Notes under the pieces: model-generated
Database searches by the model: none
What the model was told of the DNA's origin: nothing
Seen by the model: the letters and a program-made list of their open reading frames with translations, nothing else
Part shown: in pieces, positions 2,577-16,773 of the stretch
Layout of the letters: every line of letters starts with the position of its first letter
Numbering within the stretch: the stretch's first letter is position 1
Assembly (NCBI GenBank): GCA_964468655.1
Contig: CAYXUG010000003.1
Location: 1 to 63,306 of the forward strand
DNA: 63,306 nucleotides
DNA from: an uncultured bacterium
GTDB lineage: Bacteria > Fidelibacterota > Marinisomatia > Marinisomatales > CAYXUG01
Direction of reading: 5' to 3'
Program-made: the position numbers and the translations under genes

Positions 2577-2602
2577 TCCGTACAGAACGATATCTGTTAT
2601 TC

Positions 2603-3445
2603 ATGCTCGCTGTGCTCATCACGTCGGCAGCTACCGCTACCATTATCAGCATTCCTGAGGACTATCCCACGATTCAGGAGGGGATTAATGCTGCCACAAC
2701 AGGCGACTCCGTTCTCGTTGCACCGGGCACGTACGTTGAAAATATCAACTACAACGGCAAGAACATGGTGGTTGGCTCTTGGTTCTTGGTTACTGGTGAT
2801 ACAAGCTACATCTCGCAGACGGTGATTGATGGGAACCAAAGTGGGAGTGTGGTGACGTTTGAGAGTGGAGAAAATTCCAACGCACAATTAACCGGGTTTA
2901 CCATTACAAACGGTACGACTGTGACTGGCGGCGGGATTTATTGCCAAGGTTCTATTCCGAGTTTGATTAATACTATTCTATGGAACGATTTGCCGCAGGA
3001 GATTTATATCGGTTCAGGTTCAGTTAATGTATTTTACTCCGGTATTCAGGGAGGCTGGGAAGGCGAAGGCAACATTGACACCGATCCCCTCTTTGTCGAT
3101 CCCGAAAACGGTGATTTTACATTGCAATCTAACTCCCCCTGCATTGATGCAGGCACAGACTTCTTTGTCTGGGAAGGAGACACATTGGTGGATATGTCCC
3201 TTGACGATTATTATGGCACAGCTCCCGATATGGGAGTGTTTGAGTGGACAGGGTCGGAATATCTTTTAGGTGATGTGAATGGCGATGGTGTAGTAGACAT
3301 TTTTGATATTATTATTGTTGTAGATTTTATTCTTGGTAACCAAACTCTCACACCTTCACAATTTACCGCTGCTGATCTCAATCACGATATGTTTATCGAT
3401 GTGTTTGATGTTGTGTTGCTTGTAGAAGTCATTTTAGGAAATTAA
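2603..3445 (+). CDS. secreted right-handed beta-helix protein with a C-terminal type-I dockerin-like module
   Basis: The ATG at 2603 gives the leader MLAVLITSAATATI. The track start at 2483 overlaps the previous gene. Beta-helix pattern: IQEGINAATTGDSVLVAPGTYVENI, ITNGTTVTGGGIYC, PLFVDPENGDFTLQSNSPCIDAG. Two dockerin EF-hand-like repeats: GDVNGDGVVDIFDIIIVVDFILG and ADLNHDMFIDVFDVVLLVEVILG. Confidence 0.7.
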   Translation: MLAVLITSAATATIISIPEDYPTIQEGINAATTGDSVLVAPGTYVENINYNGKNMVVGSWFLVTGDTSYISQTVIDGNQSGSVVTFESGENSNAQLTGFTITNGTTVTGGGIYCQGSIPSLINTILWNDLPQEIYIGSGSVNVFYSGIQGGWEGEGNIDTDPLFVDPENGDFTLQSNSPCIDAGTDFFVWEGDTLVDMSLDDYYGTAPDMGVFEWTGSEYLLGDVNGDGVVDIFDIIIVVDFILGNQTLTPSQFTAADLNHDMFIDVFDVVLLVEVILGN

Positions 3446-3591: not shown

Positions 3592-6500
3592 TTGAAAAAA
3601 CTTCTTTTATTCTTTAAGCCGGTATTATTGGTACTTCTGTCATTAGCAGCGGGGCAGAGTACAGACCACCTCCTCATCTCCGAATTTGTTTTGGCTCCCA
3701 GTGATGTTGAGTTTATTGAACTGTATAACCCCACATCGTCAACCATTGATCTTTCGGATTATTACATCACTGACGGAACGGATTCGTCCGCAAGTGAATA
3801 TTATTACCGGCTGCCGGAAGATTCCTCGTTTTACAGCGGTACAAGTTCTGATTTTATTGCACGGTTCCCGAGCGGGAGTACCATAGGAGTTGAACAATAT
3901 GTAATTCTGGCTAAGCTGACATCTGAGTTTAACGCAAATTACGGATTCAATCCCGATTTTGAGTTTCAGTCTGACAGCGATGATGTGCCTGATATGAGGG
4001 ATGCAGTGGACAGTGAAGCCACCATAGGGACAACATCGGGCGGTTATTTATCCAATTCCAGTGAAGTGCTCATTTTGTTCAAATGGGATGGAGAAAGTGA
4101 TCTTGTTGAGGATGTGGACTACGTAACCTGGGGGAATCAAAGTAAAGGTGTGGATAAAACAGGAATTGCCATTGATGGTCCTGATTCAGACAGCGATTTA
4201 TCTCAGTACCTGGATGATACCTCAATTGACCTTCAGTCTTTTACTGCCACAACTAGTACCACCGGAAAGTCCATACAAAGGCAATTTCCTTATGAAGTTG
4301 GAGAAACATCAGCAGGTGGGAATGGGATGACAGGTAACAATGAAACGGGTGAAAACCTTGATTCAGCTTTCGTGGAATATTCAGTTACACCCGGATTTGG
4401 AATGTGGGAGACATCACCACAAATCACAAGTGTGGATTACTCACCTGATGTGCCAGTGGTAGGGGATACATTGACAGTTTCAGGAGCTATCACCGATATT
4501 GACGGCACTGTTGTAACAGCCAGATTGATTTATAATCAAGCTGAAAATGATTCGGTTGACATGACCACATTGGACGGTGAAAACTATTCGGGATCTGTGG
4601 AATTGATCTCTGATGATCAGTTTAGATTCACTATAAAAGCAGTGGATGACAGTGGGAATGTTACCATAAGTCCTGAAATTACGGTTGAAATTCAGTCGAG
4701 TAATCCGCCTGAAATTATTTTTCTCAGTCACAATCCGGCTTCGCCAACTGCGGACGATTCTGTTCGTATTAGTTTAGTGGCGGTTGAAGATAATGAAATT
4801 GATTCTGCGACTTTAAATTATACTCTTGATGAAAATCCCGGCAATCAATCAGAGTTTATTACCATTGAAATGACTGCAGATTCAGTTGTAATTGATACAT
4901 TTTATTATTCCACTTTTATTCCTCCTTTTGATTTTGGTACTCAAGTCACCTATTATTCAGTTATTACAGATAACCATGGTCTTAAGGACTCTACTAGTCT
5001 TGATTTAGCGCGCCAATACACAATTTTATCATCTTCGAGTATTACTATTGCTGAAATACGTGAAAACATTGATGATTTGGATGGACAAACGATTACGGTA
5101 GATGGTGTAATAACAGTTCCTATGGACATTATTAGAACAGATATCCATGAAGCTTTTTTACAGGATGAGTCGGGGCAGGGAATCGTCATTTTTTCATATG
5201 ATGCGGACCCGTCAATACAACGTGGTGATTCCATTATGATAACAGCAACGGTAGATGAGTTCGAGGGGAAACCGGAATTGATTGATTATTCAATTACAAC
5301 TTTAGACACAAATGCAACAATTCCCTTTGTTGAAATCAATATTCAGGAATTTAACAGCTTAGACTATTCGTACACTTTTGTGAAGTTGGAAGGAACAATC
5401 ATAGCAAGATCAAATCCAGGTGGATCAAATACCGGTGCAAATATAGTTATTCAGGATGAATCAGGAGGAGCTACAACAATCAGAATCTGGAATTCCACCA
5501 ACATTCTTTACAATGAAAGTTATGAAATTGTAAATACAGAATTAGACTCACTCCTTCAGGTTGGTAATGTAATTGAAGTGAGCGGTATTGGTGATTCTTA
5601 CGAAGGAAGTTCACAAATACTTCCAGCATTTGAAAATGATATTGTTATTTTGGAAGTCAACGAACCTGAGCCAACGCCGGATTTGTCAATTGCTGAAATA
5701 CGTGAAAACATTGATGATTTGGATGGACAAACGATTACGGTAGATGGTGTAATAACAGTTCCTATGGACATTATTAGAACAGATATCCATGAAGCTTTTT
5801 TACAGGATGAGTCGGGGCAGGGAATCGTCATTTTTTCATATGATGCGGACCCGTCAATACAACGTGGTGATTCCATTATGATAACAGCAACGGTAGATGA
5901 GTTCGAGGGGAAACCGGAATTGATTGATTATTCAATTACAACTTTAGACACAAATGCAGCAATACCATTTGTTGACCTCGATATTCAGGAATTCAATACC
6001 TTAGAATATTCGTACACCTTTGTGAAATTGTGGGGGAGAATTATTGCACGGTCAAATCCGACACCAACAAATTCCGGTGCAAATATAGATATTCAGGATG
6101 AATCAGGAGGAGTTACAACAATCAGAATCTGGAATTCCACCAACATTCTTTACAATGAAAATAATGAAATTTTAAATACAGAATTGGATTCATTGCTTCA
6201 AATCGGTACTGATATTGAAGTTTACGGTATTGGTGATTCATTCAGTGGAAGCTCACAAATACTGCCCGCTTATGCAGAGGATATCAGCGAAAAACTAGAA
6301 GGAATTGCAGGTGATTTTGAAACTTCCTTAGAGATTGAACCTTACCCGTTTGTCCCTCAATGGGGAGAAGTTATTAAATACACTTATAGTTTTCCGGACA
6401 ATGCAAGAATTAAGCTGAGAGTGTTTGACTTATCAGGTAGGTTCATAACCACACTTTTTGATGAATTCAGAGGAATCTCATTTTATAAAGAAGCCATCTG

Positions 6501-6633
6501 GGATGGCAGAAATGATCTGAACGAGGTTGTTCCACCGGGAGTGTACCTCATGCATTTGGAGGTTACGGATAAACTGAAGGGAAAAACGACAACGGATGTA
6601 GCGCCGGTGGTCATTGGCGTGAGAATGAAATGA
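3592..6633 (+). CDS. large secreted surface protein with no catalytic domain: lamin-tail domain, Ig-like modules, two OB-fold-like modules (ExeM/NucH type) and a FlgD-Ig/T9SS-like C-terminal domain
   Basis: TTG start with signal peptide MKKLLLFFKPVLLVLLSLAAG. LTD pattern: LLISEFVLAPSDVEFIELYNPTSSTIDLSDYYITDG...VDYVTWG. Duplicated module: IAEIRENIDDLDGQTITVDGVITV...EAFLQDESGQGIVIF...RGDSIMITATVDEFEGKPEL. C-terminal pattern: IKLRVFDLSGRFITTL...GVYLMHLEV. Confidence 0.75.
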   Translation: MKKLLLFFKPVLLVLLSLAAGQSTDHLLISEFVLAPSDVEFIELYNPTSSTIDLSDYYITDGTDSSASEYYYRLPEDSSFYSGTSSDFIARFPSGSTIGVEQYVILAKLTSEFNANYGFNPDFEFQSDSDDVPDMRDAVDSEATIGTTSGGYLSNSSEVLILFKWDGESDLVEDVDYVTWGNQSKGVDKTGIAIDGPDSDSDLSQYLDDTSIDLQSFTATTSTTGKSIQRQFPYEVGETSAGGNGMTGNNETGENLDSAFVEYSVTPGFGMWETSPQITSVDYSPDVPVVGDTLTVSGAITDIDGTVVTARLIYNQAENDSVDMTTLDGENYSGSVELISDDQFRFTIKAVDDSGNVTISPEITVEIQSSNPPEIIFLSHNPASPTADDSVRISLVAVEDNEIDSATLNYTLDENPGNQSEFITIEMTADSVVIDTFYYSTFIPPFDFGTQVTYYSVITDNHGLKDSTSLDLARQYTILSSSSITIAEIRENIDDLDGQTITVDGVITVPMDIIRTDIHEAFLQDESGQGIVIFSYDADPSIQRGDSIMITATVDEFEGKPELIDYSITTLDTNATIPFVEINIQEFNSLDYSYTFVKLEGTIIARSNPGGSNTGANIVIQDESGGATTIRIWNSTNILYNESYEIVNTELDSLLQVGNVIEVSGIGDSYEGSSQILPAFENDIVILEVNEPEPTPDLSIAEIRENIDDLDGQTITVDGVITVPMDIIRTDIHEAFLQDESGQGIVIFSYDADPSIQRGDSIMITATVDEFEGKPELIDYSITTLDTNAAIPFVDLDIQEFNTLEYSYTFVKLWGRIIARSNPTPTNSGANIDIQDESGGVTTIRIWNSTNILYNENNEILNTELDSLLQIGTDIEVYGIGDSFSGSSQILPAYAEDISEKLEGIAGDFETSLEIEPYPFVPQWGEVIKYTYSFPDNARIKLRVFDLSGRFITTLFDEFRGISFYKEAIWDGRNDLNEVVPPGVYLMHLEVTDKLKGKTTTDVAPVVIGVRMK
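5047..6290 (+). repeat. intragenic tandem duplication with a unit of about 642 bp (214 aa); the first 270 bp of the two copies are identical
   Basis: 5047-5316 is identical base-for-base to 5689-5958 (first difference a/g at 5317/5959). The rest of each unit is clearly homologous but diverged. The two antisense ORFs in the track (4953-5234 and 5598-5876) share identical N-terminal sequence for this reason. Confidence 0.9.
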
Positions 6634-7514
6634 AGAAGTTCCTTATCATAATTGGGTTTTGGTTTTGCATCCTTTCTGGGCAGGTTACATCAGATTATCT
6701 GTACAAAGGTCCTCGAACAGCCGCATTGGCAGGTAGCTCTATCGGCCGAACAAGTGATGGCTGGGCAATCTTCAATAATCCTGCCGGGCTTTCTCAGGTG
6801 GAGGGAATGTCTATTGTTGCCGGTTCGCAAAAAATATTTAATCTATCTTTCCTGCCCTATACCGTGGCAGGCGGAACATTTAATCTGAAGAATGCCGGTG
6901 TTATTGGCGCTGGTGTGGAAACCATGTCTGTGAAATATGATGCTATCAAATTAACCAGTGAGACAGCCATCAGATTTAGTCACGGATTTTATCTGCAGAA
7001 AGATGTTATTTCTTCGCTTGCGTTTGGTTATTCGCTGAAATTCTTCCAGTTGGATTATGGTCAATCTGCCGGACCCTCCGGGGATGGAACCGATGGTGTA
7101 AATCTTGGAAAAGGTAATGCTATAGGACTTGATATAGGTTTGCAGGCATCTCTCCGCGATCGGCACTGGATTGGTGTATTTGTTTCAAATATTAATCGAC
7201 CTAAAATTGGAGAAGGGTCTACTTCAACTCCACTCCCTCAACGGCTTCAGGCAGGATTCGGCTATTCCCCGTATTCTGTAGTCTGGACATACTTCTCACT
7301 CACCAAAGCGGTGAATCACGATACTCAGTACCACGCCGGAATTGAGTACTACCTCTTTAAAAATATAAGATTAATGTTTGGGACGCATACCGGTCCTTCC
7401 CGGTTTGGTGCCGGTATTTCTGCTGATCTCAATTTTCTTAATATCAGCTACGGACTTATTACCCACCCTGTTTTACCATTAACGCATCAATTTTCCTTTG
7501 GAGCCAATCTGTGA
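6630..7514 (+). CDS. outer-membrane beta-barrel protein, FadL/PorV/PorQ-like
   Basis: ATGA overlap with the upstream stop at 6630/6633. Signal peptide MKKFLIIIGFWFCILSG. N-terminal motif: RTAALAGSSIGRTSDGWAIFNNPAGL. The rest has alternating beta-strand character. Confidence 0.55.
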   Translation: MKKFLIIIGFWFCILSGQVTSDYLYKGPRTAALAGSSIGRTSDGWAIFNNPAGLSQVEGMSIVAGSQKIFNLSFLPYTVAGGTFNLKNAGVIGAGVETMSVKYDAIKLTSETAIRFSHGFYLQKDVISSLAFGYSLKFFQLDYGQSAGPSGDGTDGVNLGKGNAIGLDIGLQASLRDRHWIGVFVSNINRPKIGEGSTSTPLPQRLQAGFGYSPYSVVWTYFSLTKAVNHDTQYHAGIEYYLFKNIRLMFGTHTGPSRFGAGISADLNFLNISYGLITHPVLPLTHQFSFGANL

Positions 7515-9961
7515 AGCGTTTTTCTTTCACATTGATAATTTTGTTTGTTGGATTACTTTCTGCTGAACAGGTTGATCTTAACCTCGCATCTCTGGATGAA
7601 ATTAAGACACTCCCGCTTACAGATGAACAGGCAGAAGCCATTTATGATCGTCTTCTATTCCAGGGTCCATTTATATCAGTTTATGATTTAATGGATATTG
7701 AGGGGATGGATGTTGAAACATTCGCAATTATTAAACCGCTGATCATCATTTCAAAAGCAGCGAAAGATGGCGCAATAAACCGCCTGCAGGATGCATACCG
7801 AAAAGTGGAACGATGGACATCCATTGAAGGCGCAAATGAGGGAATGATTGAACAGTGGCTTGACCGGCTATCTGAACCTGTCCATATTATGTCCGCAACT
7901 TACGATGATCTTGTGGCGTTGCAGAATGTGAGCCCTGTGGACGCAGTGGCCGTTGTAAAAAAGCAGCAGCAAAAGGGAGGAATTGGTTATCCCAAAGCTC
8001 TGCGTGGCGCACCGGGACTTTCCTATTGGGGATACCGGAATATGATTGATTTTGTTACGTTTGATTCATCGCCTGAATTGAGTGAGAAACATTTCTGGTA
8101 TAACCTTACATGGAAAACTGTACCATCATCAACATCATTTGATGAAGAATCGGAATCGCCGGAAGCTGCTAACAGTTATCCACCTGCAGTTAACCATAAA
8201 TTGGTTTATTCTCCCAATAACCAATCGAAATTTTTAATGGCTTACCACCGGCAGTTAGGTGAAGAAAACAGGAGAATTGCTATTGGGAGCTTTGAAATCC
8301 CTGAATTTAAATTTTCATATAGTTTTAAAGGGAAAGGAAAAAATGTTTTTCAATTAGACCGCATGGTTTTCGGTAATTATTCAGTTACCATTGGGCAGGG
8401 AGTGGTCTTTGAAAGTACCGATTTCTGGTCCCCTCGCAGATCGGGTTACAGTTGGAGTAAACGTATTCATGGAATTTTACCTGACATATCTCAAACAAGG
8501 GAATATGCATTAAGGGGTGCCGCACTTCAGGGAAGGTTTGCGAATATCAAATTTCTCGGATTTATTTCCAAACACCCTCGGGACGCAGTGCTGAATATTG
8601 ACGGTTCCTTCACCTCTTTAATTACCATGTATCCACGAAGGGACTCGGTGTCTGCTGATGGGTTAATGGTACCTCTTACCAATACGGTTGAGGAAGTAAC
8701 CTGGGGTGGGAATATGCGGTTTGAAATTCAACCGGGGACATTTGTGGGATTCACTACGTATGAAAGTCTTTATGACAAAGAATTGAAACCTGACATATTA
8801 CGATCTGTCGTTGCAATTGATGAGCAGGAAAAATATTTGACTCAAATTGGAAATGCGGCAGACACTGAAATTGCCGCTATGTACAGTTCAGCAGGTTCTT
8901 CACCATTGTGGTCAGCCGCTAAAAGTGTAAGGCGTTTACATGGATTAGAATTTTCGGCTGTTTTAAGGGATATTGCTATCCAGGGTGAATTGGGTATTCT
9001 TGATAAAGATGGGAAAATTTCAGATATTAAGAGTGACCCCAAGGCATTGGTGGTAACTTCTTTTTTACAAGTAAATAATCTTAATTTATTAGCAGTTTAT
9101 AGAGACTATGATTTGGAATATGATAACCCGTATCAGAGGTCGTTTTCGAATTATCAGCGGTATAAGAGCACCATTTTTGAAGATGTGTTTTATTTAAAGG
9201 ATCCGGTGTTTGGGTATCTGTATTCAGGCAATTCCCAGCCACAGGCAGAACGTGGCATTTATCTTTCCAGCCGGTATCAGTTTCACCGCCAGTGGGTCAC
9301 CACCAATGAAATTGATATGTGGACCCGGGTTGCTGACAATTCAAAATATTACAGAATTGTTGCACGGTTTGAATATAGGCCGGTGTTCAACTATCGCTTC
9401 AAGATTCGTCAGAAGTGGCAGCAGCGTGCATCCTTTAACGATTGGACACCTACCGGATTTGATTCCAGAGAGACTCGCCTGGAAGCCATCCTCCGGCTTT
9501 CGAGATACGATAACCTTCGCCTGCTTTATGCACTGAACAAAGTACTGTTCAGTCCAAGGAGACGACTCTCACTCGACCTCGGGTCATTGGGTGAATCCAA
9601 TTCCATGGTAGGCGCCAGCGCTTTAAAGAGTGAAGCCATCGGTTTTACCGTAATACACAATTTTTCTGACAGAATGAAAGTGCTCGGTTCTGTCATCATG
9701 TATAACGGCTTTTTCTGGAATTTTGAAGATACCGATTTCAGGGTATTCGATTCACCGAAAGACGCATTACGGTGGTGGGTTACATTCTTTACACGCATTG
9801 GCGATAGATGGGCTATGCGGTTTAAAATATCCACAGATGCTTCTTATCCCATAACCAATTATAATTTTGCTATTGAAGATTATGAAAGAATTCAATGGTC
9901 TGGTCTCAGTAGCCAAAATGAATCAATAGATTTCAGGATTCAACTGGATTATGCGTATTAA
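7511..9961 (+). CDS. large (816 aa) outer-membrane protein with two N-terminal ComEA-like helix-hairpin-helix units
   Basis: GTGA overlap with the upstream stop. Signal peptide MKRFSFTLIILFVGLLSA. First HhH unit: VDLNLASLDEIKTLPLTDEQAEAIYDRLLFQGPFISVYDLMDIEGMDVETFAIIKPLI. Second unit: ATYDDLVALQNVSPVDAVAVVKKQQQKGG. Roughly 600 aa rich in aromatic/alternating residues follow, ending ...QLDYAY. Confidence 0.6.
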   Translation: MKRFSFTLIILFVGLLSAEQVDLNLASLDEIKTLPLTDEQAEAIYDRLLFQGPFISVYDLMDIEGMDVETFAIIKPLIIISKAAKDGAINRLQDAYRKVERWTSIEGANEGMIEQWLDRLSEPVHIMSATYDDLVALQNVSPVDAVAVVKKQQQKGGIGYPKALRGAPGLSYWGYRNMIDFVTFDSSPELSEKHFWYNLTWKTVPSSTSFDEESESPEAANSYPPAVNHKLVYSPNNQSKFLMAYHRQLGEENRRIAIGSFEIPEFKFSYSFKGKGKNVFQLDRMVFGNYSVTIGQGVVFESTDFWSPRRSGYSWSKRIHGILPDISQTREYALRGAALQGRFANIKFLGFISKHPRDAVLNIDGSFTSLITMYPRRDSVSADGLMVPLTNTVEEVTWGGNMRFEIQPGTFVGFTTYESLYDKELKPDILRSVVAIDEQEKYLTQIGNAADTEIAAMYSSAGSSPLWSAAKSVRRLHGLEFSAVLRDIAIQGELGILDKDGKISDIKSDPKALVVTSFLQVNNLNLLAVYRDYDLEYDNPYQRSFSNYQRYKSTIFEDVFYLKDPVFGYLYSGNSQPQAERGIYLSSRYQFHRQWVTTNEIDMWTRVADNSKYYRIVARFEYRPVFNYRFKIRQKWQQRASFNDWTPTGFDSRETRLEAILRLSRYDNLRLLYALNKVLFSPRRRLSLDLGSLGESNSMVGASALKSEAIGFTVIHNFSDRMKVLGSVIMYNGFFWNFEDTDFRVFDSPKDALRWWVTFFTRIGDRWAMRFKISTDASYPITNYNFAIEDYERIQWSGLSSQNESIDFRIQLDYAY

Positions 9962-11300
9962 ACTCAGCAAAATATTCGCCGGTGTTTTTCTGATATCGTC
10001 CATGTTCGGACAGTCATATTTTAATGGAGTGGTGGGAGAATTCGTCTGGTTCGGGGATTCTCGATCCATGGCAATGGGACAAACCGGAATTGCCGAAAGT
10101 CACGGATTCTCCAATTTGTGGATAAATCCTGCCCTACTGAATATTGATGGTCGATTTTTGTTTGAATCTACGTTACAAGTAAAACGGTTGGAAGAGCAGA
10201 GGACATTCCCGGTGATTGATATGTTTGGAGATATTGTTACTGATAATATTTACAATGTTTCTTCAAAATGGTATCAAAATGAATCATTCGGCGCAGTTCT
10301 AAATTTACCATTGCTGCCATTTACACTGGCTATAGGTAAAGCGCCATTCCTCGATTTCAGATTCCAATATGATGAAGGCGTCCGTGGTAACTTGACTTCA
10401 TCCAATTATAACAGGGATCCATTGGTGGGGTATCATCGAATTTCATCTGATGGAAAAATTGATGCTGTCAGCGGCGGAATTGCCTTAAGATTGTTAGACC
10501 GCATCCATTTTGGTGTGAGCGGACATATACTCACCGCAAGTGAATTTTCAAGAAATTACTCCGTTATTGTGATTGAGTCTGATGATGCCTTGGCAGCAGA
10601 AGATACACTTATCTTTGAATCTAAATGGGAGATTGAAAAAGTGAAAATGAAACCTTCACTTGCGAAACCATATACTTTTTCCGTTGGTGGTTCCATTGAC
10701 TTCAATTGGCATATCAGTATTTCTGCAAATTACAGGAATGGTGTTCATTTTAAAACGAGTGACCTTTCTGTTGCGCCATCCATTGATGAAAATACACTGC
10801 TTCCGGCTTATTCTTGGAGGGAAGACAGTCTGAAAATTCAGTATGCTTACCCAGAAAAATATTCGTTGGGAATACGCTATCAACCGACCAATCCTATTCC
10901 TACAAAACTATTTGCTGAAATTCATTATACGGACTGGTCACAATTTAAAATTTCCTATTCCCGAAGAGTGAATGATGAGGACAGCTTTTCCCACAACTTC
11001 AGTGAGACTTATGAATTTCGTTTTGGATTGGAACACATGGTGTTGAGGAAAATACCATTTAGAGCAGGATTCATTTATGCGGAGTCACCTTATGGGAATG
11101 AACTGGATAGAAGTATTTTCACAATTGGCAGCGGTTTCAGTCCATTGGATAATTTGACTGTTGATGTGGCCGGGAAATTCACTACAAGCGAATACAAATA
11201 TGTTGATATTTTCCCTGCAGTGGGGCAAGAAAGCACTGAATTGGAAAATGTAAAAGAATCGATAGGTACTCTTTCAGTTACTATGAAGTATGAATTTTAA
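9951..11300 (+). CDS. outer-membrane beta-barrel protein, FadL/PorV-like
   Basis: 11-nt overlap with the upstream gene. Signal peptide. Motif: GDSRSMAMGQTGIAESHGFSNLWINPALL. C-terminal ...TMKYEF, with the terminal aromatic typical of OMPs. Confidence 0.55.
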   Translation: MRIKLSKIFAGVFLISSMFGQSYFNGVVGEFVWFGDSRSMAMGQTGIAESHGFSNLWINPALLNIDGRFLFESTLQVKRLEEQRTFPVIDMFGDIVTDNIYNVSSKWYQNESFGAVLNLPLLPFTLAIGKAPFLDFRFQYDEGVRGNLTSSNYNRDPLVGYHRISSDGKIDAVSGGIALRLLDRIHFGVSGHILTASEFSRNYSVIVIESDDALAAEDTLIFESKWEIEKVKMKPSLAKPYTFSVGGSIDFNWHISISANYRNGVHFKTSDLSVAPSIDENTLLPAYSWREDSLKIQYAYPEKYSLGIRYQPTNPIPTKLFAEIHYTDWSQFKISYSRRVNDEDSFSHNFSETYEFRFGLEHMVLRKIPFRAGFIYAESPYGNELDRSIFTIGSGFSPLDNLTVDVAGKFTTSEYKYVDIFPAVGQESTELENVKESIGTLSVTMKYEF

Positions 11301-11355
11301 TAAACAATTTATTCACTACTATCGTCTCCTTTTTACTAAGGAGGGAATTAAGTGG

Positions 11356-13308
11356 ATGTCTGAGTCAAAAACAAATACACCATCCATTGTCATTTCTGTA
11401 GTGCTAATATTAATTTTTTTTCTCCCATTTTTGTCAGCAAAGGATGGGATCGATCGCCTGCACATTATTTTTACCAATGATCTCCGTGGCGCGATTCAAT
11501 ATCAGGAGGCACCATTTATCAATCCTGAGTTTGCGCCAAGAGTAACCGGCGGTGCAGCTGCTTTGGAGTATCTGAATGATGTGAGGGAAATGGTATCCCA
11601 AAATGGTGAAGAAGTCCTCGTGTTGGATGGAGGTAATGTCTTTCAAGGGAATCCATTGGGTACTCGCGATGGAGGGGAAACCATTATGAAGTGGATGAAT
11701 CAGATGGGATATGATGCCATGACAGTGGGGAATTATGATTTTGATCAGGGTATTGAAAATGTGAGAAAGCTTTCCAGACTTGCTGAATTCCCTTTTTTGG
11801 GTGGAAATATTCTGGATGAATCCACTGGAAGGACTGTGGATTTTTGTGCTTCTTACATTATAAAAGAAATGATGGGAATGAGGGTTGCAATTATTGGTGT
11901 AACAACTTCATCTTTTCCTGAGATTACTGTTCCAGAGGCTGTTGCAGGTTTAAAATTTGAAAGAGAACTGCCGTATGTAAAAAAGGCAATAGAACAAGTA
12001 AAAGCTCAAGGAGCTGAAATTGTCATTCTCCTTGCCCATTTGGGACTGCCTTATGATATTGAAGATAAGTTTAAAGATTTCATTGATGATGTTTCAAATT
12101 CAAAAAAAGATTGGAATTCTGTTTCACTTAATGCAATGCAACTGGCACATTTTATCCAAGGAGTTGATGTCATCATTACAGGCCACATTACCAAGGGATA
12201 TAATGATCCATGGGAAGATCCTATGAGTCATGCCCTCTGTTTTCAGTCATATGGAAGTGGCACAAGCATTGGACATATAATATTGAATATAGACCGGCAG
12301 ACAAAACAGATGATTGGTTATGACACTCCCTCTGAAAGAGGCGCATTGATAACCTTATTTGATGATGATTTTCATCACAATTTTGATGGTGCTGATCAAA
12401 TTGAGGGTTGGCGGAAAATTGCTCAAAAGCAAGTCAGTAAACCAGTAAACCTACCAAGTAATAGTCGGACAGAAATATCAATTCAAGATAATTGGGCTAT
12501 TCCTTCATTCGGCAGTGACAACCGATTGGAAATCGCAACATGGAATATTGAATTTTTCCCAAAAGCAGGGGATACCACAATCGCTGCCATGGCGGAAGTG
12601 GTCAATGACTTGAATGTAGATATTATAGGGATTCAGGAAATCGGCAAGCGAGGTTCCTTCGCTGAAATGATGGCGCTTATTCCGGAGTACGATTATGTGC
12701 TCAGTCAGAGTTCATCTTTTTTCGATCAGGCCATCATTTACAAGAAAGAGTTTGTGACGGCGGTCTCCCAAAAAGATCTCTTTACATTTGAAGATTACTG
12801 GTTCGCCGGAAGACCTCCTTTGCAGGGAGATTTCATCTGGAATAATGGGGGAATTCAGTTCCCAGTTTCAGTGATTGATATACACATGAAATGCTGTGAT
12901 GACGGAATCTACCGTCGTAGTGTGGCGAGTAAAATGCTAGCTGATTATATAAAGGAAAAAATAGCTGGTGACAATTCCAATATTTTAGTTGTAGGAGACT
13001 GGAATGATGAAATTGATGATCCTTGGCATGAACAATCATTGAATCCATTTGTGCAGGATAAAGAAAATTTTTATTTTACTACTATTCCAATTCTCTACGA
13101 TCCAACTCAATATTCTTACCCATCTTGGCCAAGTTTCCTTGATCACATACTGATATCAAAAAGTCTGTTTTTTGAAAACAAATCATCGGGTAACACTCAA
13201 ACCATAAGATTACAGGATTACGTGGGGGGATGGGATGAATATGAAAGGATTCTTTCTGATCATTTACCGGTGGTCTGGTCTATTTCGTTTGAAAATTCTC
13301 CCAATTAG
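11356..13308 (+). CDS. membrane-anchored UshA-type 5'-nucleotidase/metallophosphoesterase fused to a C-terminal endonuclease/exonuclease/phosphatase (EEP) domain
   Basis: ATG at 11356 is preceded by AAGGAGG at 11339-11345. N-terminal anchor: IVISVVLILIFFLPFLSA. Metallophosphoesterase motifs: HIIFTNDLRG, LDGGNVFQG, GNYDFD, LAHLG. EEP motifs: IATWNIEFFPK, DIIGIQEI, VVGDWND, SDHLPVVW. Confidence 0.8.
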   Translation: MSESKTNTPSIVISVVLILIFFLPFLSAKDGIDRLHIIFTNDLRGAIQYQEAPFINPEFAPRVTGGAAALEYLNDVREMVSQNGEEVLVLDGGNVFQGNPLGTRDGGETIMKWMNQMGYDAMTVGNYDFDQGIENVRKLSRLAEFPFLGGNILDESTGRTVDFCASYIIKEMMGMRVAIIGVTTSSFPEITVPEAVAGLKFERELPYVKKAIEQVKAQGAEIVILLAHLGLPYDIEDKFKDFIDDVSNSKKDWNSVSLNAMQLAHFIQGVDVIITGHITKGYNDPWEDPMSHALCFQSYGSGTSIGHIILNIDRQTKQMIGYDTPSERGALITLFDDDFHHNFDGADQIEGWRKIAQKQVSKPVNLPSNSRTEISIQDNWAIPSFGSDNRLEIATWNIEFFPKAGDTTIAAMAEVVNDLNVDIIGIQEIGKRGSFAEMMALIPEYDYVLSQSSSFFDQAIIYKKEFVTAVSQKDLFTFEDYWFAGRPPLQGDFIWNNGGIQFPVSVIDIHMKCCDDGIYRRSVASKMLADYIKEKIAGDNSNILVVGDWNDEIDDPWHEQSLNPFVQDKENFYFTTIPILYDPTQYSYPSWPSFLDHILISKSLFFENKSSGNTQTIRLQDYVGGWDEYERILSDHLPVVWSISFENSPN

Positions 13309-14203
13309 ATTTTTTCTTTCTTTAGCCACATTATTTTGGATGAGTTGTGGTGAAGTTATATCCGGTAATGCAAATGATAATGGTGGGATAGATCCACCTC
13401 CATCGGGTGAAGTCGATGAGATTGAAATTGTAACATGGAATATAGAGCATTTTCCCAAAAGTGATTTAACAGTAGAAAAAACAATTACAATTATGGATAC
13501 CTTAGATGCTGATATTTACTGTATTCAGGAAATTACAGATGTAACCAATTTTGAAAATGTGGCTGATGCTCTAGATGGGTATAACGCTATTATTTCAACA
13601 GAAGCGTGGTCACTGGGAGTCATTTATCGGTCAACAATGTTAACAGCATCAAATATTGAGGAATTTTTTCTTGATCACTCTGGATTTGCGACACGTCCTC
13701 CTTTGAAAGTGGATTTTAGTTATCAGATTGATGAAGCTCAATATTTCTTCTCAGTGATCAATTTACACATGAAATGTTGTGGGGATGGGGAAATTGAACA
13801 TGAAAATGAAAACGATGAGGAATTCAGGCGGTACGGTGCGAGTATTACTTTAAAAAATTATATTGATGCCAGTATGGATAACGATAATGTAATTATTGTC
13901 GGTGATTGGAATGATCTAATCGTAGAAGAAGTTGAATCGAACAATGTTTTTATGAATTTTATTGAAGATGAAGACAATTTTATGTTTGTTGATATGAGTA
14001 TTGCCAATGGCTCAACAGCAAATTGGTCATATCCATCATGGCCAAGTCACATTGACCACATTCTAATCACCAATGAACTTTTCGATGAATTCCAGTATTC
14101 ATTAATTTCTACCATTCGAGCTGATGATTTCATTGATAATTATTTTACTGATGTTTCCGACCACCGTCCTGTTATGTGGAAATTTCAACCGAATTTCGAG
14201 TAA
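13289..14203 (+). CDS. EEP-family nuclease/phosphatase, probable lipoprotein (paralog of the C-terminal domain of the previous gene)
   Basis: An in-frame TTG at 13289 gives (M)KILPIRFFLSLATLFWMSCG. The alternative ATG at 13235 lies inside the previous gene. EEP motifs: IVTWNIEHFPK, DIYCIQEI, IIVGDWND, SDHRPVMW. Confidence 0.72.
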   Translation: MKILPIRFFLSLATLFWMSCGEVISGNANDNGGIDPPPSGEVDEIEIVTWNIEHFPKSDLTVEKTITIMDTLDADIYCIQEITDVTNFENVADALDGYNAIISTEAWSLGVIYRSTMLTASNIEEFFLDHSGFATRPPLKVDFSYQIDEAQYFFSVINLHMKCCGDGEIEHENENDEEFRRYGASITLKNYIDASMDNDNVIIVGDWNDLIVEEVESNNVFMNFIEDEDNFMFVDMSIANGSTANWSYPSWPSHIDHILITNELFDEFQYSLISTIRADDFIDNYFTDVSDHRPVMWKFQPNFE

Positions 14204-14206
14204 ACG

Positions 14207-15178
14207 TTGAATCCATTTTTCATTTTACTTTTTACCGGTTTTCTGATTTCACAGGAAGCGTCTTTTGTTAAATATTACAAGTCCAAAGATGATGTCATCA
14301 AAGGAATCCCCATGGATGCAACGGATCGTATTGGGAAAAGTCACATCCGTGTTTTTTATGATAAAATGAACAATATGGTGTCAAAAGGGTGGATGGATGA
14401 AACAGACAAATTGTTGAAGGAGGAAGTATTTGAATACAATGAAGATGGCTCCATTTGGAAAAGGGGTCTCAGGACCGGCACCGGTCATACAGAAAAACTT
14501 TACATTTATGGCGACAAAGAGGATGTTTCAAACGAATTCATTCAATATGTCTACTCTAACAGAAATGAAAAAGAATTTTTTGACCGAATAACAGTTTATG
14601 AGTTTCTATCTGACAGTTCCATTGATAACTACCAATTTTTTAGCATTGATTATACTCCATTTGGAACAATTGAATACCATTTTTCAGATGATAAAAATGA
14701 AAAGTCTGAAAAGTGGATTCGACTTCCCGAGAAAAAATTAGTTAGGCAATTTCAATACAATCATTATTCCGATACCGATGATTACGAACTCCTTGAAATT
14801 GATTCAATGGGGACTGTAATCAGTCATGTTGGTTTGAACTTATCTATTTTTTCTGGAGAAGAACTTTTAACCTTAACAACCAGTGGTAATGTGTTGGAGG
14901 AAAGTAAACCCATTATCAGAGAAATTCGTGAAAGAAAAGCTGCCGGTTGGAAAATGCCGGAAGATATTAAAATTGATTTTCAGGATGATTCTGAATTTTT
15001 ACCTGATAAGATTACCCTTAATAATGATGAAACTTTAGATGTGGATCTTGTAGTTGTTACTGATTTGTATGCTAGGTTTCGATTATTGGGTGAAAAAGAA
15101 ATTTTAACCATACCTCTTGTATCGGTCAGTGAAGTGAAAAAACGGGATGGAACTGTTATTTACCCAATTTCTTTTTAA
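14207..15178 (+). CDS. hypothetical secreted protein
   Basis: Long ORF starting 3 nt after the previous stop. TTG start. Hydrophobic leader MNPFFILLFTGFLISQ. No motif recognised. Confidence 0.5.
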   Translation: MNPFFILLFTGFLISQEASFVKYYKSKDDVIKGIPMDATDRIGKSHIRVFYDKMNNMVSKGWMDETDKLLKEEVFEYNEDGSIWKRGLRTGTGHTEKLYIYGDKEDVSNEFIQYVYSNRNEKEFFDRITVYEFLSDSSIDNYQFFSIDYTPFGTIEYHFSDDKNEKSEKWIRLPEKKLVRQFQYNHYSDTDDYELLEIDSMGTVISHVGLNLSIFSGEELLTLTTSGNVLEESKPIIREIRERKAAGWKMPEDIKIDFQDDSEFLPDKITLNNDETLDVDLVVVTDLYARFRLLGEKEILTIPLVSVSEVKKRDGTVIYPISF

Positions 15179-15233
15179 AGAATTGATAGACAAGCTTGAT
15201 TTTAGGGTTAGCACAAATTATATTGGAGGCGCT

Positions 15234-16007
15234 GTGAGAAACCGATTTACGTATCTCTTGATGATTTTATTTTGTGTTTGTGTCCAGGCGCAAGATTATC
15301 CCGCACCGACCAATCTGATAACAATTCCGACAGCAGGTGTGCTGGTTAGGGGTACCTACACGGCAGATGCCCGCATTCAAAATGGAGGCGGATTAATCTT
15401 TGGATTGTCTGTGGGAATTACTAACAGGTTCATGTTTGGACTCTCCTACGGCGCAGGGAATCTTATCGGTGATGACAGCTTAAAATGGTATCCCCGTCCT
15501 GAAGTCAATTTAAAGTACCGACTTATTGATGAAGACATGTCCAAACCGGGAATTGCCATCGGATTAGAGACTCAAGGGCTAGGAGAGTTTTTGGATGCCG
15601 ATACATTGAATAGGTACAGCACAAAAGCATTGGGTGCTTATCTTTCAATGAGTAAAAACTGGAAATCACCGCTGGGTAATGCGGGGCTTCACGCCGGAAT
15701 TAATTATAATTTTACTGAGCAGTTGGATGGTGATAAAGATATGAGCGCATTTGCAGGTTTTGATGTGGAAATTAACCCTGAACTTTCTTTTATTATGGAA
15801 TACAATGCAGCACTTAATGAAAATGCTATGACAATCAGGAACATTGCCCTCAGCAGAGGCGGTTACCTGAATACCGCAATTCGTTGGACATTTGTAGATC
15901 ACCTTCATATTGAACTCGAGTTTAATAATCTGCTGTTCAACAAAAAAAATGAAAGTTTGCAAACATTCACGCGGGAATTGAAAATCACCTATATTGAATA
16001 TTTTTAA
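15234..16007 (+). CDS. hypothetical outer-membrane beta-barrel protein
   Basis: GTG at 15234 follows GGAGG at 15225-15229 and gives the leader VRNRFTYLLMILFCVCVQAQ. Alternating beta-strand pattern. C-terminus ...KITYIEYF. Confidence 0.5.
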   Translation: MRNRFTYLLMILFCVCVQAQDYPAPTNLITIPTAGVLVRGTYTADARIQNGGGLIFGLSVGITNRFMFGLSYGAGNLIGDDSLKWYPRPEVNLKYRLIDEDMSKPGIAIGLETQGLGEFLDADTLNRYSTKALGAYLSMSKNWKSPLGNAGLHAGINYNFTEQLDGDKDMSAFAGFDVEINPELSFIMEYNAALNENAMTIRNIALSRGGYLNTAIRWTFVDHLHIELEFNNLLFNKKNESLQTFTRELKITYIEYF

Positions 16008-16010
16008 TTT

Positions 16011-16544: not shown

Positions 16545-16565
16545 TTTTCGTCATTGCAATCTTAA

Positions 16566-16733: not shown

Positions 16734-16773
16734 TTATTGTTAACATCCCGAGAAATTCTCGGGATTTAGATTC

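What the first reader, a model, noticed from the sequence alone, without database searches (positions are those of the whole stretch)
3592..14203. Candidate surface machine for capturing, degrading and importing extracellular DNA
Seen: the genes are co-directional. Four of them are translationally coupled by 4- to 11-nt overlaps (6630/6633, 7511/7514, 9951/9961).
1. 3592-6633 encodes a signal peptide, a lamin-tail domain, Ig-like modules, two copies of an OB-fold-like module (IAEIR..GQTITVDGVITV..EAFLQDESGQGIVIF..RGDSIMITATVDEFEGKPEL) and a FlgD-Ig/T9SS-like C-terminal anchor. It has no catalytic domain.
2. 6630-7514 and 9951-11300 encode barrels with FadL/PorV/PorQ-type N-terminal motifs.
3. 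7511-9961 encodes an 816-aa OM protein with two ComEA-like HhH units at its N-terminus.
4. 11356-13308 encodes an anchored UshA-type 5'-nucleotidase fused to an EEP nuclease/phosphatase domain.
5. 13289-14203 encodes a second EEP lipoprotein.

Established:
- LTD + OB + EEP on one polypeptide is, as I recall it, the architecture of ExeM/NucH extracellular nucleases.
- ComEA-type HhH binds dsDNA without sequence specificity.
- UshA-type enzymes release nucleosides plus phosphate.

Inference: here the same parts are spread over separate surface and OM proteins and joined to dedicated barrels. That suggests a system that tethers environmental DNA, digests it at the surface, and passes the products (or DNA itself) through the outer membrane. 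NupC-Cdd-Adk salvage genes lie at 40.5-42.9 kb. I do not recognise a characterised system with this composition.
Basis: partly seen in the sequence, partly recalled or inferred. Interest (0 to 1): 0.85.

Follow-up and report, generated by a model that had tools for sequence, protein, structure and literature searches.

The report
Outer-membrane DNA-scavenging operon of Marinimicrobia
A gene cluster conserved throughout the abundant ocean phylum Marinimicrobia joins a DNA-binding surface protein, three outer-membrane barrels (one carrying ComEA-like DNA-binding units) and DNase-I-like nucleases. It most likely forms an uncharacterised apparatus for feeding on dissolved DNA.

Summary
The genes, overlaps and most domain calls are real. 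Gene 1 has a lamin-tail domain, two copies of a tandem-OB module and a FlgD-Ig/T9SS-type tail. Gene 3 is a roughly 24-26-strand barrel preceded by two ComEA-type HhH units. Gene 4 is FadL-family, and genes 5 and 6 carry intact DNase-I-like EEP domains.

One call is wrong in substance. The "UshA 5'-nucleotidase" of gene 5 has lost its metal and catalytic residues and has no nucleotide-binding C-domain. A sister clade carries a genuine 5'-nucleotidase at that position.

The order 1-2-3-4-5 is kept in nearly all of about 80 species-level genomes: gene 2 in 66/66, gene 1 in 50/50, gene 4 in 65/70, gene 5 in 55/59. In an Elusimicrobiota MAG and in unnamed lineages, the barrel module sits next to other nucleic-acid enzymes (true 5'-nucleotidase, NucT-like PLD nuclease) and Ugp-like ABC importers.

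This supports nutrient scavenging of extracellular nucleic acid. Localisation, substrate and route are inferred. The HhH units probably face the periplasm rather than the surface, and unit 1 is acidic. I found no characterised counterpart of the barrel module. Verdict: interpretation partly supported; new variant of a known kind; interest about 0.7.

The parts
3592..6633 (+). Gene 1: 1013-aa secreted protein with signal peptide, LTD, Ig-like middle, two tandem-OB modules and a FlgD-Ig/T9SS-type C-terminal domain. No catalytic domain.
   Evidence: Pfam LTD 44.5 bits and tRNA_anti-codon 46.7 bits. Orthologues are about 650-680 aa with one OB module. Found upstream of gene 3 in 50/50 loci with enough flank.
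3655..4098 (+). Lamin-tail domain of gene 1 (residues 22-169).
   Evidence: PF00932, E 2.3e-11, above the gathering score.
5047..5688 (+). OB module copy 1 (214 aa, two OB folds).
   Evidence: AlphaFold2 pLDDT 91.9 with two beta-barrels. Foldseek best hits are Teb1 AB, POT1, IFI16 HIN-200, RPA, LEF-3 and the LysRS anticodon domain. JGI names homologues 'DNA/RNA endonuclease YhcR...'.
5689..6330 (+). OB module copy 2, a tandem duplicate of copy 1.
   Evidence: Direct repeat with a 642-nt period. The first 240 nt are 100% identical, and most of the later 60-nt blocks fall to 72-95% identity.
6301..6630 (+). C-terminal FlgD-Ig/T9SS-like sorting or anchoring domain of gene 1.
   Evidence: Conserved motif LRVFDxxGR...WDGRD...VPxGxYxxHL...PVVIG. 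Among 28 orthologues, 13 hit FlgD_ig, 7 CHU_C and 2 Por_Secre_tail. The window copy is below threshold.
6630..7514 (+). Gene 2: 294-aa small outer-membrane barrel, PorV/PorQ/FadL-like, with an NPA motif (IFNNPAGLS). Translationally coupled to genes 1 and 3.
   Evidence: NCBIfam PorV_fam at 39 bits over the full model length, below the cut-off of 90. Upstream of gene 3 in 66/66 loci. Profile hits next to gene-3 homologues in WOR-3, an Elusimicrobiota MAG and the unnamed lineage of L087.
7511..9961 (+). Gene 3: 816-aa outer-membrane protein with signal peptide, two ComEA-type HhH units and a large beta-barrel.
   Evidence: HHH_3 at 37.4 bits. AF2 model shows helices at 20-180 and then about 24-26 strands. 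Foldseek finds only generic large barrels (FimD, LptD, MtrB), TM about 0.3. There are 421 clusters at 50% identity and 326 species genomes.
7562..7741 (+). HhH unit 1 (residues 18-77). It is acidic (net -10) and lacks the GIG hairpins.
   Evidence: PF12836, E 2.8e-9. Charge analysis.
7877..8056 (+). HhH unit 2 (residues about 123-182). It is basic in most relatives.
   Evidence: HHH_3 at 14 bits in the window. 23/26 relatives hit HHH_3, best 5.4e-14. Net charge +2 to +5 in most.
8090..9958 (+). Barrel domain of gene 3, with the family's most conserved motif YRDYDLxFDNPYQRSFSNYQRYK (residues about 530-552).
   Evidence: No Pfam hit even at E<=5. Invariant residues. The motif was used for the genome scan.
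9951..11300 (+). Gene 4: 449-aa FadL-family outer-membrane barrel with an NPA motif (LWINPALL).
   Evidence: PF03349 at 47.1 bits, above the gathering score; weak PorV and BamG hits. Downstream of gene 3 in 65/70 loci. Also present in L086-L088.
11356..13308 (+). Gene 5: 650-aa secreted protein with a degenerate UshA-like metallophosphatase domain and an intact DNase-I-like EEP domain.
   Evidence: Found in 55/59 loci. Of 61 loci, 46 carry this type and 15 carry a true 5'-nucleotidase at this position.
11461..12444 (+). Dead metallophosphatase-like domain (residues 36-363).
   Evidence: Aligned to PDB 3ivd and UshA. The motifs read DLR, GN, GNY and GHIT instead of DxH, GD, GNH and GHxH. They are degenerate in all type-B orthologues.
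12535..13263 (+). EEP nuclease domain of gene 5 (residues 394-636).
   Evidence: PF03372 at 58 bits. WNxE, QE, HxKCC, GDWND and SDH are invariant. A profile search finds DNase I over its full length, E 3e-8.
13289..14203 (+). Gene 6: EEP lipoprotein, a paralogue of the EEP domain of gene 5.
   Evidence: PF03372 at 34 bits. Lipobox (LxSC-A/G-x-P...) conserved in homologues. An EEP gene follows gene 5 in 34/51 loci.
14207..16007 (+). Peripheral genes 7 and 8: a 323-aa secreted protein of unknown family and a roughly 250-aa small barrel ending in F. Probably not core.
   Evidence: No Pfam or NCBIfam hits. Kept in only 10/45 and 13/45 loci.

Best explanation
This is an envelope operon for scavenging extracellular nucleic acid as a nutrient. 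It is conserved throughout Marinimicrobia, and its barrel core is shared with other uncultivated diderm phyla.

Shown:
- Gene 1 has an LTD and four nucleic-acid-type OB folds, with a T9SS-type tail.
- Gene 2 is a small PorV/FadL-like barrel.
- Gene 3 is a roughly 24-26-strand barrel carrying two N-terminal ComEA-type HhH units.
- Gene 4 is a FadL-family barrel.
- Genes 5 and 6 are two DNase-I-like EEP nucleases with export signals.
- Gene order is tightly conserved and the genes are translationally coupled.

Inferred:
1. Gene 1 is exported by the T9SS and held at the surface by a barrel partner, by analogy with PorP/SprF-type anchors. There it binds DNA or RNA.
2. The polymer, or fragments cut by neighbouring T9SS nucleases, enters through the gene 3 barrel, possibly with help from genes 2 and 4.
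3. The HhH units, most plausibly the basic unit 2, lie on the periplasmic side and retain the incoming strand as ComEA does.
4. The gene 5 and gene 6 nucleases digest it.
5. Dephosphorylation and inner-membrane import are done by enzymes encoded elsewhere. In this clade the nucleotidase domain of gene 5 is dead and probably serves only as a scaffold.
For: - Domain assignments.
- The tandem-OB model has pLDDT 92, and its structural neighbours are exclusively nucleic-acid-binding OB proteins.
- The EEP profile matches DNase I and DNase gamma better than sphingomyelinases, and its catalytic residues are invariant.
- Synteny across about 80 species-level genomes: gene 2 in 66/66, gene 1 in 50/50, gene 4 in 65/70, gene 5 in 55/59.
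- Independent nucleic-acid enzymes recur beside the barrel module. These are a true 5'-nucleotidase at position 5 in 15 loci; Endonuclease_1+CTD, EEP+CTD and EEP+LTD+CTD upstream; 5'-nucleotidase plus a Ugp-like ABC importer in an Elusimicrobiota MAG (L088); and a NucT-like PLD nuclease, a metallophosphatase and a Ugp-like importer in L087.
- Gene 1 relatives elsewhere are fused to EEP or Endonuclease_1 domains and are named extracellular nucleases.
- PorP-like barrels are known to anchor T9SS type B cargo (PMC9143113).
Against: - There is no experimental evidence of any kind, and no expression data.
- HhH unit 1 is acidic and lacks the GIG hairpins. Unit 2 is below the Pfam threshold in this window.
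- The gene 3 model is only moderately confident (pLDDT 58). Pore size, strand parity and the side on which the HhH units lie are not established.
- Gene 2 accompanies gene 3 in WOR-3 without any gene 1. Gene 2 may therefore be a partner of gene 3 and not the anchor of gene 1.
- In some lineages the g2-g3 pair or the g1-g2-g3 trio sits among housekeeping genes with no nuclease nearby.
- FadL-type barrels and Ugp-like importers are classically linked to hydrophobic and glycerophosphoryl substrates.
- No 5'-nucleotidase or importer is encoded in this window's operon.
Confidence: 0.6

Rival explanations
1. This is a DNA-uptake port for natural transformation. The g2-g3 barrel pair would be a secretin-independent outer-membrane entry route. 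The fused ComEA-like units would pull dsDNA into the periplasm for ComEC, and the nucleases would only process ends or one strand.
For: - The HHH_3/ComEA homology, and databases name the family 'DNA uptake protein ComE-like'.
- The g2-g3 pair and the g1-g2-g3 trio occur without nucleases among housekeeping genes in WOR-3, KSB1-like and other lineages. One of these lies next to recO.
- Bacteroidota are already known to use non-canonical outer-membrane proteins for transformation (PMC8459023).
Against: - Across phyla the module is repeatedly joined to degradative enzymes (5'-nucleotidase, DNase-I-like EEP, NucT-like PLD) and to Ugp-like nutrient importers. These destroy DNA rather than preserve it.
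- No comEC, dprA or comF lies in any inspected locus.
- HhH unit 1 is acidic.
Confidence: 0.15
2. This is a surface adhesion or matrix system. Gene 1 would be a T9SS-anchored adhesin that binds eDNA on marine particles or in biofilm. The barrels would be its secretion and anchoring partners, and the nucleases would remodel or release the cell from eDNA. Nothing would be imported.
For: - Gene 1 has a T9SS-type tail and is translationally coupled to a PorV/PorQ-like barrel.
- PorP/SprF-like barrels anchor adhesins such as SprB (PMC9143113).
- Many other CTD surface proteins lie nearby (FG-GAP, dockerin, a second LTD protein).
Against: - It does not explain a roughly 24-26-strand barrel with HhH units directly after its signal peptide.
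- It does not explain the conserved FadL-family barrel.
- It does not explain the recurrent periplasmic-type 5'-nucleotidases and ABC importers in the same operons.
- The g2-g3 pair persists where gene 1 is absent.
Confidence: 0.12
3. This is scavenging of a substrate other than nucleic acid. Candidates are phosphodiester or organophosphate compounds such as phospholipid head groups, glycerophosphodiesters or teichoic-acid-like polymers. The EEP domains would act as phosphodiesterases, the FadL-type barrels would pass amphipathic products, and Ugp-like systems would import glycerophosphoryl compounds.
For: - The EEP superfamily includes sphingomyelinases and phospholipases, which appear as weaker hits.
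- Genes 2 and 4 belong to the FadL/PorV superfamily.
- The importers in L087 and L088 are closest to UgpB and UgpA.
Against: - The best solved relatives of the EEP profile are DNase I and DNase gamma over their full length.
- The OB folds resemble nucleic-acid binders only.
- HhH, LTD, ExeM/NucH-like N-terminal parts, 5'-nucleotidase, NucT-like and Endonuclease_1 neighbours all point to nucleic acids.
Confidence: 0.08
4. These are neighbouring but functionally independent envelope genes, and the apparent 'machine' is an artefact of reading domains side by side.
For: - Marinimicrobia genomes are dense in secreted and CTD proteins.
- No interaction data exist.
Against: - The start and stop codons overlap.
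- Gene order is near-invariant over species whose gene 3 proteins are only 39-55% identical.
- The same barrel set re-associates with nucleic-acid enzymes in other phyla.
Confidence: 0.05

Closest known systems
ExeM / NucH / Xds extracellular nucleases (NCBIfam NF033681)
   Same: They use the same building blocks: LTD, a tRNA_anti-codon-type OB fold and an EEP nuclease domain. Gene 1 and gene 6 give weak partial hits to this model, and the gene 1 homologue in L087 matches its N-terminal part at 54 bits. ExeM is described in PMC6085458.
   Different: Here the parts lie on separate polypeptides. Gene 1 has no catalytic domain, and the scores (16-33 bits) are far below the cut-off of 300. The system adds a T9SS-type tail, three barrels and HhH units.
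Bacillus subtilis YhcR-type wall-anchored nuclease/5'-nucleotidase (from memory; JGI labels)
   Same: It combines an OB fold, a nuclease and a UshA-like metallophosphatase on the cell surface. JGI names OB-module homologues after YhcR.
   Different: YhcR is one sortase-anchored protein of a monoderm, with an SNase domain and an active 5'-nucleotidase. Here the nuclease is EEP-type, the nucleotidase domain is dead, and the context is an outer membrane.
ComEA (with PilQ and the type IV pilus) of competent Gram-negative bacteria (PMC3879209)
   Same: It has an HHH_3-type helix-hairpin-helix module placed, by inference here, in the periplasm, where it can retain incoming DNA.
   Different: ComEA is a small soluble or anchored protein that works with a secretin and pilus. 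Here two HhH units are fused to a large barrel, no pilus or secretin genes are linked, and unit 1 is acidic. The comEA model TIGR01259 is not met (22.7 bits against a cut-off of 152).
T9SS cargo with cognate barrel pairs (PorP/SprF with type B CTD proteins; PorQ-PorZ, PorV-PorU) (PMC9143113, PMC12618676)
   Same: A protein with a CTD-like tail is encoded next to a small PorV/PorQ-like barrel and is translationally coupled to it.
   Different: The gene 2 score is below the PorV_fam cut-off. Gene 2 also accompanies gene 3 where no gene 1 exists. No PorE-like partner was seen.
'DNA-degradation loci' of Ca. Izemoplasmatales (PMC8289736)
   Same: LTD/OB/nuclease proteins are co-located with nucleotidases and transporters, and the loci are interpreted as DNA foraging in marine settings.
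   Different: The Izemoplasmatales loci have no outer-membrane barrels. [quoted passage not shown]
Vibrio cholerae eDNA utilisation pathway (Xds/Dns, outer-membrane passage, UshA/CpdB, NupC) (from memory)
   Same: The overall logic is the same: extracellular nuclease, outer-membrane passage, periplasmic nucleotidase, nucleoside importer.
   Different: In Vibrio the components are scattered and Pho-regulated, with no dedicated HhH-barrel. Here they form one operon with a new barrel family.
Riemerella anatipestifer non-canonical transformation proteins (PMC8459023)
   Same: This is an FCB-group bacterium that uses unusual outer-membrane and HhH proteins for DNA entry.
   Different: The proteins are different: a CarboxypepD_reg barrel, a DUF5689 surface protein and a separate periplasmic HhH protein. 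No homology to genes 1-4 was detected.

Membership tests
ExeM/NucH family extracellular endonuclease (NF033681) | Whole-protein score of at least 300 bits, with LTD, OB and EEP on one polypeptide | tested here: not met
   Gene 1 scores 32.5 bits (N-terminal part only), gene 6 scores 27.2 bits and gene 5 scores 16 bits. The domains are split over separate genes.
UshA-type 5'-nucleotidase | N-terminal calcineurin-like metallophosphatase fold | tested here: met
   PF00149 at 25.6 bits (cut-off 21.5). Residues 36-363 align to PDB 3ivd residues 8-312, E 2e-22.
UshA-type 5'-nucleotidase | Dimetal and catalytic motifs DxH, GD, GNH(E/D) and GHxH | tested here: not met
   The window reads DLR, GN, GNY and GHIT. 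The motifs are degenerate in all 46 type-B orthologues and intact in the 15 type-A proteins.
UshA-type 5'-nucleotidase | C-terminal nucleotide-binding domain (PF02872) | tested here: not met
   There is no PF02872 hit in gene 5. It is present at 109-127 bits in type-A proteins of sister loci.
EEP / DNase-I-like nucleases (PF03372) | Pfam score above the gathering threshold, with conserved catalytic Asn/Glu/Asp/His | tested here: met
   Gene 5 scores 58.1 bits and gene 6 scores 34 bits against a cut-off of 24.5. WNxE, QE, GDWND and SDH are invariant. The profile matches DNase I over its full length, E 3e-8. Nuclease activity itself was not tested.
ComEA / HHH_3 (PF12836; TIGR01259) | HHH_3 domain above the Pfam threshold | tested here: met
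   Unit 1 scores 37.4 bits against a cut-off of 27. Unit 2 scores 14 bits in the window, but 23/26 relatives hit HHH_3.
ComEA / HHH_3 (PF12836; TIGR01259) | comEA family-level score (at least 152 bits) and a basic DNA-binding surface with GIG hairpins | tested here: not met
   TIGR01259 scores 22.7 bits. Unit 1 has net charge -10 and reads LPLTDEQ and EGMD in place of GIG. Unit 2 is basic (+2).
PorV/PorQ family (NF033709) | Score of at least 90 bits | tested here: not met
   Gene 2 scores 39.4 bits over model positions 12-325 of 326. Gene 4 scores 38.2 bits in a partial match. Superfamily-level relatedness is plausible; membership is not shown.
FadL/OMPP1/TodX (PF03349) | Pfam gathering score and an N-terminal NPA hatch motif | tested here: met
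   Gene 4 scores 47.1 bits against a cut-off of 29.7. The sequence contains LWINPALL. Transport of hydrophobic substrates was not tested.
T9SS C-terminal sorting domain (PF18962 / PF13585 / FlgD_ig-type) | A recognisable CTD at the extreme C-terminus | tested here: inconclusive
   In the window copy only CHU_C appears, at E 0.1. Among 28 orthologues, 13 hit FlgD_ig, 7 hit CHU_C and 2 hit Por_Secre_tail. T9SS cargo and SprA are present in related genomes.
Lamin-tail domain (PF00932) | Pfam gathering score | tested here: met
   44.5 bits against a cut-off of 34.3, residues 22-169.
Nucleic-acid-binding OB fold (PF01336) | Pfam gathering score and an OB topology resembling nucleic-acid binders | tested here: met
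   46.7 bits against a cut-off of 27. The AF2 model has pLDDT 92. Foldseek hits are Teb1, POT1, RPA, HIN-200, LEF-3 and LysRS, with no CBM among the top 50. Binding itself was not tested.
Known anti-phage defence systems (PADLOC) | Any component model hit | tested here: not met
   No hits for genes 1-8.

The most novel reading that the evidence does not exclude
The gene 2-gene 3(-gene 4) module is a previously unrecognised class of outer-membrane nucleic-acid translocon. It would be a large barrel with built-in ComEA-like periplasmic ratchet domains, fed by an OB-fold surface receptor, that imports polymeric DNA or RNA without a secretin, pilus or TonB. It would serve as the main route by which Marinimicrobia, Elusimicrobiota, WOR-3 and relatives consume dissolved nucleic acids. 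It would do for nucleic acids what polysaccharide utilisation loci do for glycans.
Probability: 0.3. Interest if true: 0.9.

Novelty: new variant of a known kind. Interest (0 to 1): 0.7.

Why it matters
Dissolved DNA is a major pool of organic phosphorus and nitrogen in the ocean. Marinimicrobia (SAR406) are among the most abundant uncultivated bacteria of the dark ocean and of oxygen-minimum zones.

A phylum-wide operon for capturing and digesting nucleic acid would assign these bacteria a concrete biogeochemical role. It would also provide marker genes for DNA turnover in metagenomes and metatranscriptomes.

Mechanistically, a barrel with fused ComEA-type units would be a new answer to how nucleic acid crosses an outer membrane without a secretin or pilus. 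The dead nucleotidase domain fused to a live nuclease is also a clear example of an enzyme domain recycled as a scaffold.

Tried and rejected
- Tandem Repeats Finder missed the gene 1 duplication because its period exceeds 500. The repeat finder found it.
- tRNA and Rfam scans of the window were empty.
- Promoter and terminator scans were at chance level.
- PDB sequence searches with gene 3, gene 1 and gene 6 gave nothing useful.
- Foldseek on the gene 3 model gave only generic large barrels at TM about 0.3. No specific structural relative can be claimed.
- The barrel region has no Pfam hit even at E<=5.
A narrower one worked.
- BLASTP of gene 2 against gene 4 shows no detectable similarity.
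- PADLOC was negative, so a defence-system reading is rejected.
- The literature searches run for a description of the cluster found none. They turned up only analogues (PMC8289736, PMC8459023).
- A carbohydrate-binding reading of the OB modules is rejected on the fold search.
- An active 5'-nucleotidase in this window is rejected on motif analysis.

Full report
**Observation**

The six co-directional ORFs exist at the stated coordinates. The junctions are true start/stop overlaps: ATGA at 6630-6633, GTGA at 7511-7514, and ATG(9951)...TAA(9961). Gene 5 most plausibly starts at 11356, behind an AGGAGG motif. Gene 6 starts at 13289 and has a lipobox.

The window belongs to Marinimicrobia (SAR406/Neomarinimicrobiota). 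Gene 3 has more than 300 close homologues. Those that carry a source name are mostly labelled with that phylum, at 53-64% identity.

**Domains of genes 1 and 2**

Gene 1 has a signal peptide. Its LTD scores 44.5 bits (cut-off 34.3) and its tRNA_anti-codon-type OB fold scores 46.7 bits (cut-off 27). It has no catalytic domain.

The repeated "OB-like module" is a 642-nt tandem duplication, 5047-5688 and 5689-6330. The first 240 nt are identical and the rest has diverged. Orthologues are about 650-680 aa and carry one module.

An AlphaFold2 model of one module is confident (pLDDT 91.9) and shows two OB barrels. Its Foldseek neighbours in the PDB are nucleic-acid binders: Teb1 AB, POT1, IFI16 HIN-200, RPA, LEF-3, CST, BRCA2 and LysRS anticodon domains. 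No carbohydrate-binding module is among the top 50.

The C-terminal 110 residues carry a conserved LRVFDxxGR...WDGRD...VPxGxY...PVVIG motif. The window copy scores below threshold. Among 28 orthologues, 13 hit FlgD_ig, 7 hit the type B T9SS signal CHU_C and 2 hit Por_Secre_tail.

Gene 2 aligns over the whole PorV/PorQ model but scores only 39 bits against a cut-off of 90.

**Gene 3, the HhH-barrel**

HhH unit 1 is solid, at 37.4 bits for HHH_3. Unit 2 scores only 14 bits here, but 23 of 26 diverse relatives match HHH_3, down to E 5e-14. The second refutation criterion therefore also fails.

Residues 194-816 have no Pfam match at all. The AF2 model has mean pLDDT 58, with strands at 70-86. It shows an N-terminal helical region followed by about 24-26 long strands. 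Foldseek returns only generic large barrels (FimD usher, LptD, MtrB, SlpA) at TM about 0.3.

The HhH units follow the signal peptide directly, and the protein ends in a typical aromatic barrel terminus (...QLDYAY). By inference they most likely face the periplasm.

There is one caveat. Unit 1 is acidic (net -10 here, negative in most relatives) and lacks the GIG hairpins. Unit 2 is basic in most relatives. If DNA is bound, unit 2 is the better candidate.

**Gene 4**

Gene 4 passes the FadL/Toluene_X threshold, at 47.1 bits against a cut-off of 29.7. Both gene 2 and gene 4 carry the NPA motif, although they show no detectable similarity to each other by BLASTP.

**Genes 5 and 6**

The N-terminal part of gene 5 is homologous to the UshA/CD73 metallophosphatase domain (query 36-363 against PDB 3ivd 8-312, E 2e-22). 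The residue-level alignment shows DxH replaced by DLR, GD by GN, GNH by GNY and GHxH by GHIT. No 5_nucleotid_C domain is present.

Among 61 orthologous position-5 proteins, 46 share this degenerate pattern fused to an EEP domain (the window's type). The other 15 are about 550-aa proteins with every motif intact, and the four of these scanned with Pfam each carry a strong 5_nucleotid_C domain. The window therefore encodes a dead nucleotidase domain, while a sister clade keeps a real enzyme in the same slot.

The EEP domains of genes 5 and 6 keep WNxE, QE, HxKCC, GDWND and SDH invariant. A profile of them finds DNase I over its full length (E 3e-8) and DNase gamma ahead of sphingomyelinases. Gene 6 homologues all have lipoboxes.

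**Conservation**

A genome scan with the most conserved gene 3 motif found 326 species-level genomes. The best 80 are almost all Marinimicrobia, with Fidelibacterota, KSB1 and FCB-group MAGs.

| Gene | Position relative to gene 3 | Loci with the gene / loci with enough flank |
|---|---|---|
| 2 | upstream | 66/66 |
| 1 | upstream | 50/50 |
| 4 | downstream | 65/70 |
| 5 | downstream | 55/59 |
| EEP gene after gene 5 | downstream | 34/51 |
| 7 | downstream | 10/45 |
| 8 | downstream | 13/45 |

The third refutation criterion, no co-occurrence, fails decisively.

Many loci add T9SS-exported nucleases upstream: Endonuclease_1+CTD, EEP+CTD and EEP+LTD+CTD.

**Deeper relatives**

Databases call the gene 3 family only "HhH domain-containing", "ComEA family" or "ComE-like". 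It extends to Elusimicrobiota and WOR-3/Caldipriscus. The contexts are:
- g2-g3 alone in WOR-3.
- g1(OB, no LTD)-g2-g3 among housekeeping genes in KSB1-like lineages.
- g3-g4-5'-nucleotidase in L086.
- g2-g3-g4-5'-nucleotidase-UgpAE-like-UgpB-like in an Elusimicrobiota MAG (L088).
- g1-like(ExeM N-terminal part)-g2-g3-g4-NucT-like PLD nuclease-metallophosphatase-UgpAE/UgpB-like in L087.

Three unrelated nuclease folds, plus nucleotidases and nutrient-type ABC importers, thus recur next to the same barrel set. This is the strongest evidence here that the barrels serve nucleic-acid (organophosphate) acquisition and not transformation or adhesion.

**Mechanism**

The proposed mechanism is inferred. 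Gene 1 is T9SS-exported and surface-held, by analogy with PorP/SprF-type anchoring of type B cargo (PMC9143113). It binds DNA or RNA through its OB folds. The polymer or its fragments pass the gene 3 barrel, with genes 2 and 4 as partners or channels for small products. The periplasmic HhH units retain the strand as ComEA does (PMC3879209). The gene 5 and gene 6 nucleases digest it. Dephosphorylation and import are done elsewhere.

NupC, Adk and a Cdd-like ORF do exist at 40.5-42.9 kb. They are not linked to the cluster in the other loci inspected.

The alternatives are a transformation port, an eDNA adhesin system, scavenging of non-nucleic phosphodiesters, and mere neighbourhood. I weigh them in the rivals section. 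None explains the cross-phylum enzyme associations as well.

**Novelty**

The literature searches run for a description of this cluster or of the HhH-barrel found none. The nearest concepts are:
- ExeM/Xds/NucH single-chain nucleases (PMC6085458).
- The 'DNA-degradation loci' of the monoderm Izemoplasmatales (PMC8289736).
- ComEA-dependent uptake (PMC3879209).
- Non-canonical transformation proteins of Riemerella (PMC8459023).

I class the locus as a new variant of a known kind (nucleic-acid scavenging). Its outer-membrane module has no characterised counterpart.

Everything functional remains inference from sequence, models and gene neighbourhood.

Noticed in passing
window 5047-6330: The tandem duplication of the 642-nt OB module in gene 1 has its first 240 nt 100% identical, while most of the later 60-nt blocks fall to 72-95% identity. 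This pattern suggests recent gene conversion or possibly an assembly artefact. Orthologues carry a single module.
   Followed up: partly
L036-L049, L070, L073, L074, L082 (position-5 gene); L038:15310-16884: A sister clade has a genuine 5'-nucleotidase where the window has the dead-MPE-EEP fusion. It is sometimes followed by a separate EEP lipoprotein. The window's gene 5 may have arisen by fusion of the two genes with loss of the 5_nucleotid_C domain.
   Followed up: partly
window 7562-7741: HhH unit 1 of gene 3 is unusually acidic (net -10, pI 4.1) and lacks the GIG hairpins. Unit 2 is basic. Unit 1 may be a protein-interaction module and not a DNA binder.
   Followed up: partly
window 9098-9166 (gene 3 residues about 530-552): The most conserved stretch of the whole HhH-barrel family (YRDYDLxFDNPYQRSFSNYQRYK) is rich in Arg, Tyr, Asn and Gln. 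It falls in a low-confidence, partly helical segment of the model. It may be an in-pore loop or a plug.
   Followed up: no
window 48283-50034 (-): A second secreted protein has two lamin-tail domains (103 bits) and a CHU_C type B T9SS signal. It lies 34 kb from the cluster.
   Followed up: no
window 14207-17337: Downstream genes are an unknown 323-aa secreted protein, a roughly 250-aa small barrel ending in F, a YtfJ-like protein and a NUDIX hydrolase. They travel with the cluster only in the closest relatives (L002, L004, L010, L016, L022). NUDIX may relate to nucleotide metabolism.
   Followed up: partly
window 57-3445: Upstream lie an FG-GAP repeat protein with a T9SS type A CTD and a dockerin-containing protein. 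GC is 0.51 in the first 2 kb against about 0.39 for most of the window. In most other loci this position holds a second LTD+CTD protein.
   Followed up: no
L087:6627-11272 and L088:5030-9717: In L087 and in an Elusimicrobiota MAG (L088), the barrel module is followed by a UgpB/UgpAE-like ABC importer (137-163 bits for the binding proteins, below the equivalog cut-off). L087 also has a NucT/PLD-like nuclease. This hints at import of phosphorylated products.
   Followed up: partly
window 60147-62378: A dynamin-family GTPase gene lies in the lowest-GC stretch of the window (0.33).
   Followed up: no
L080:14397-15179 and L060:7204-8001: In KSB1-like lineages the g1-g2-g3 trio is followed by sucD, ksgA, recO and an aminoacyl-tRNA synthetase in a conserved order. 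The proximity of recO is probably coincidental.
   Followed up: no
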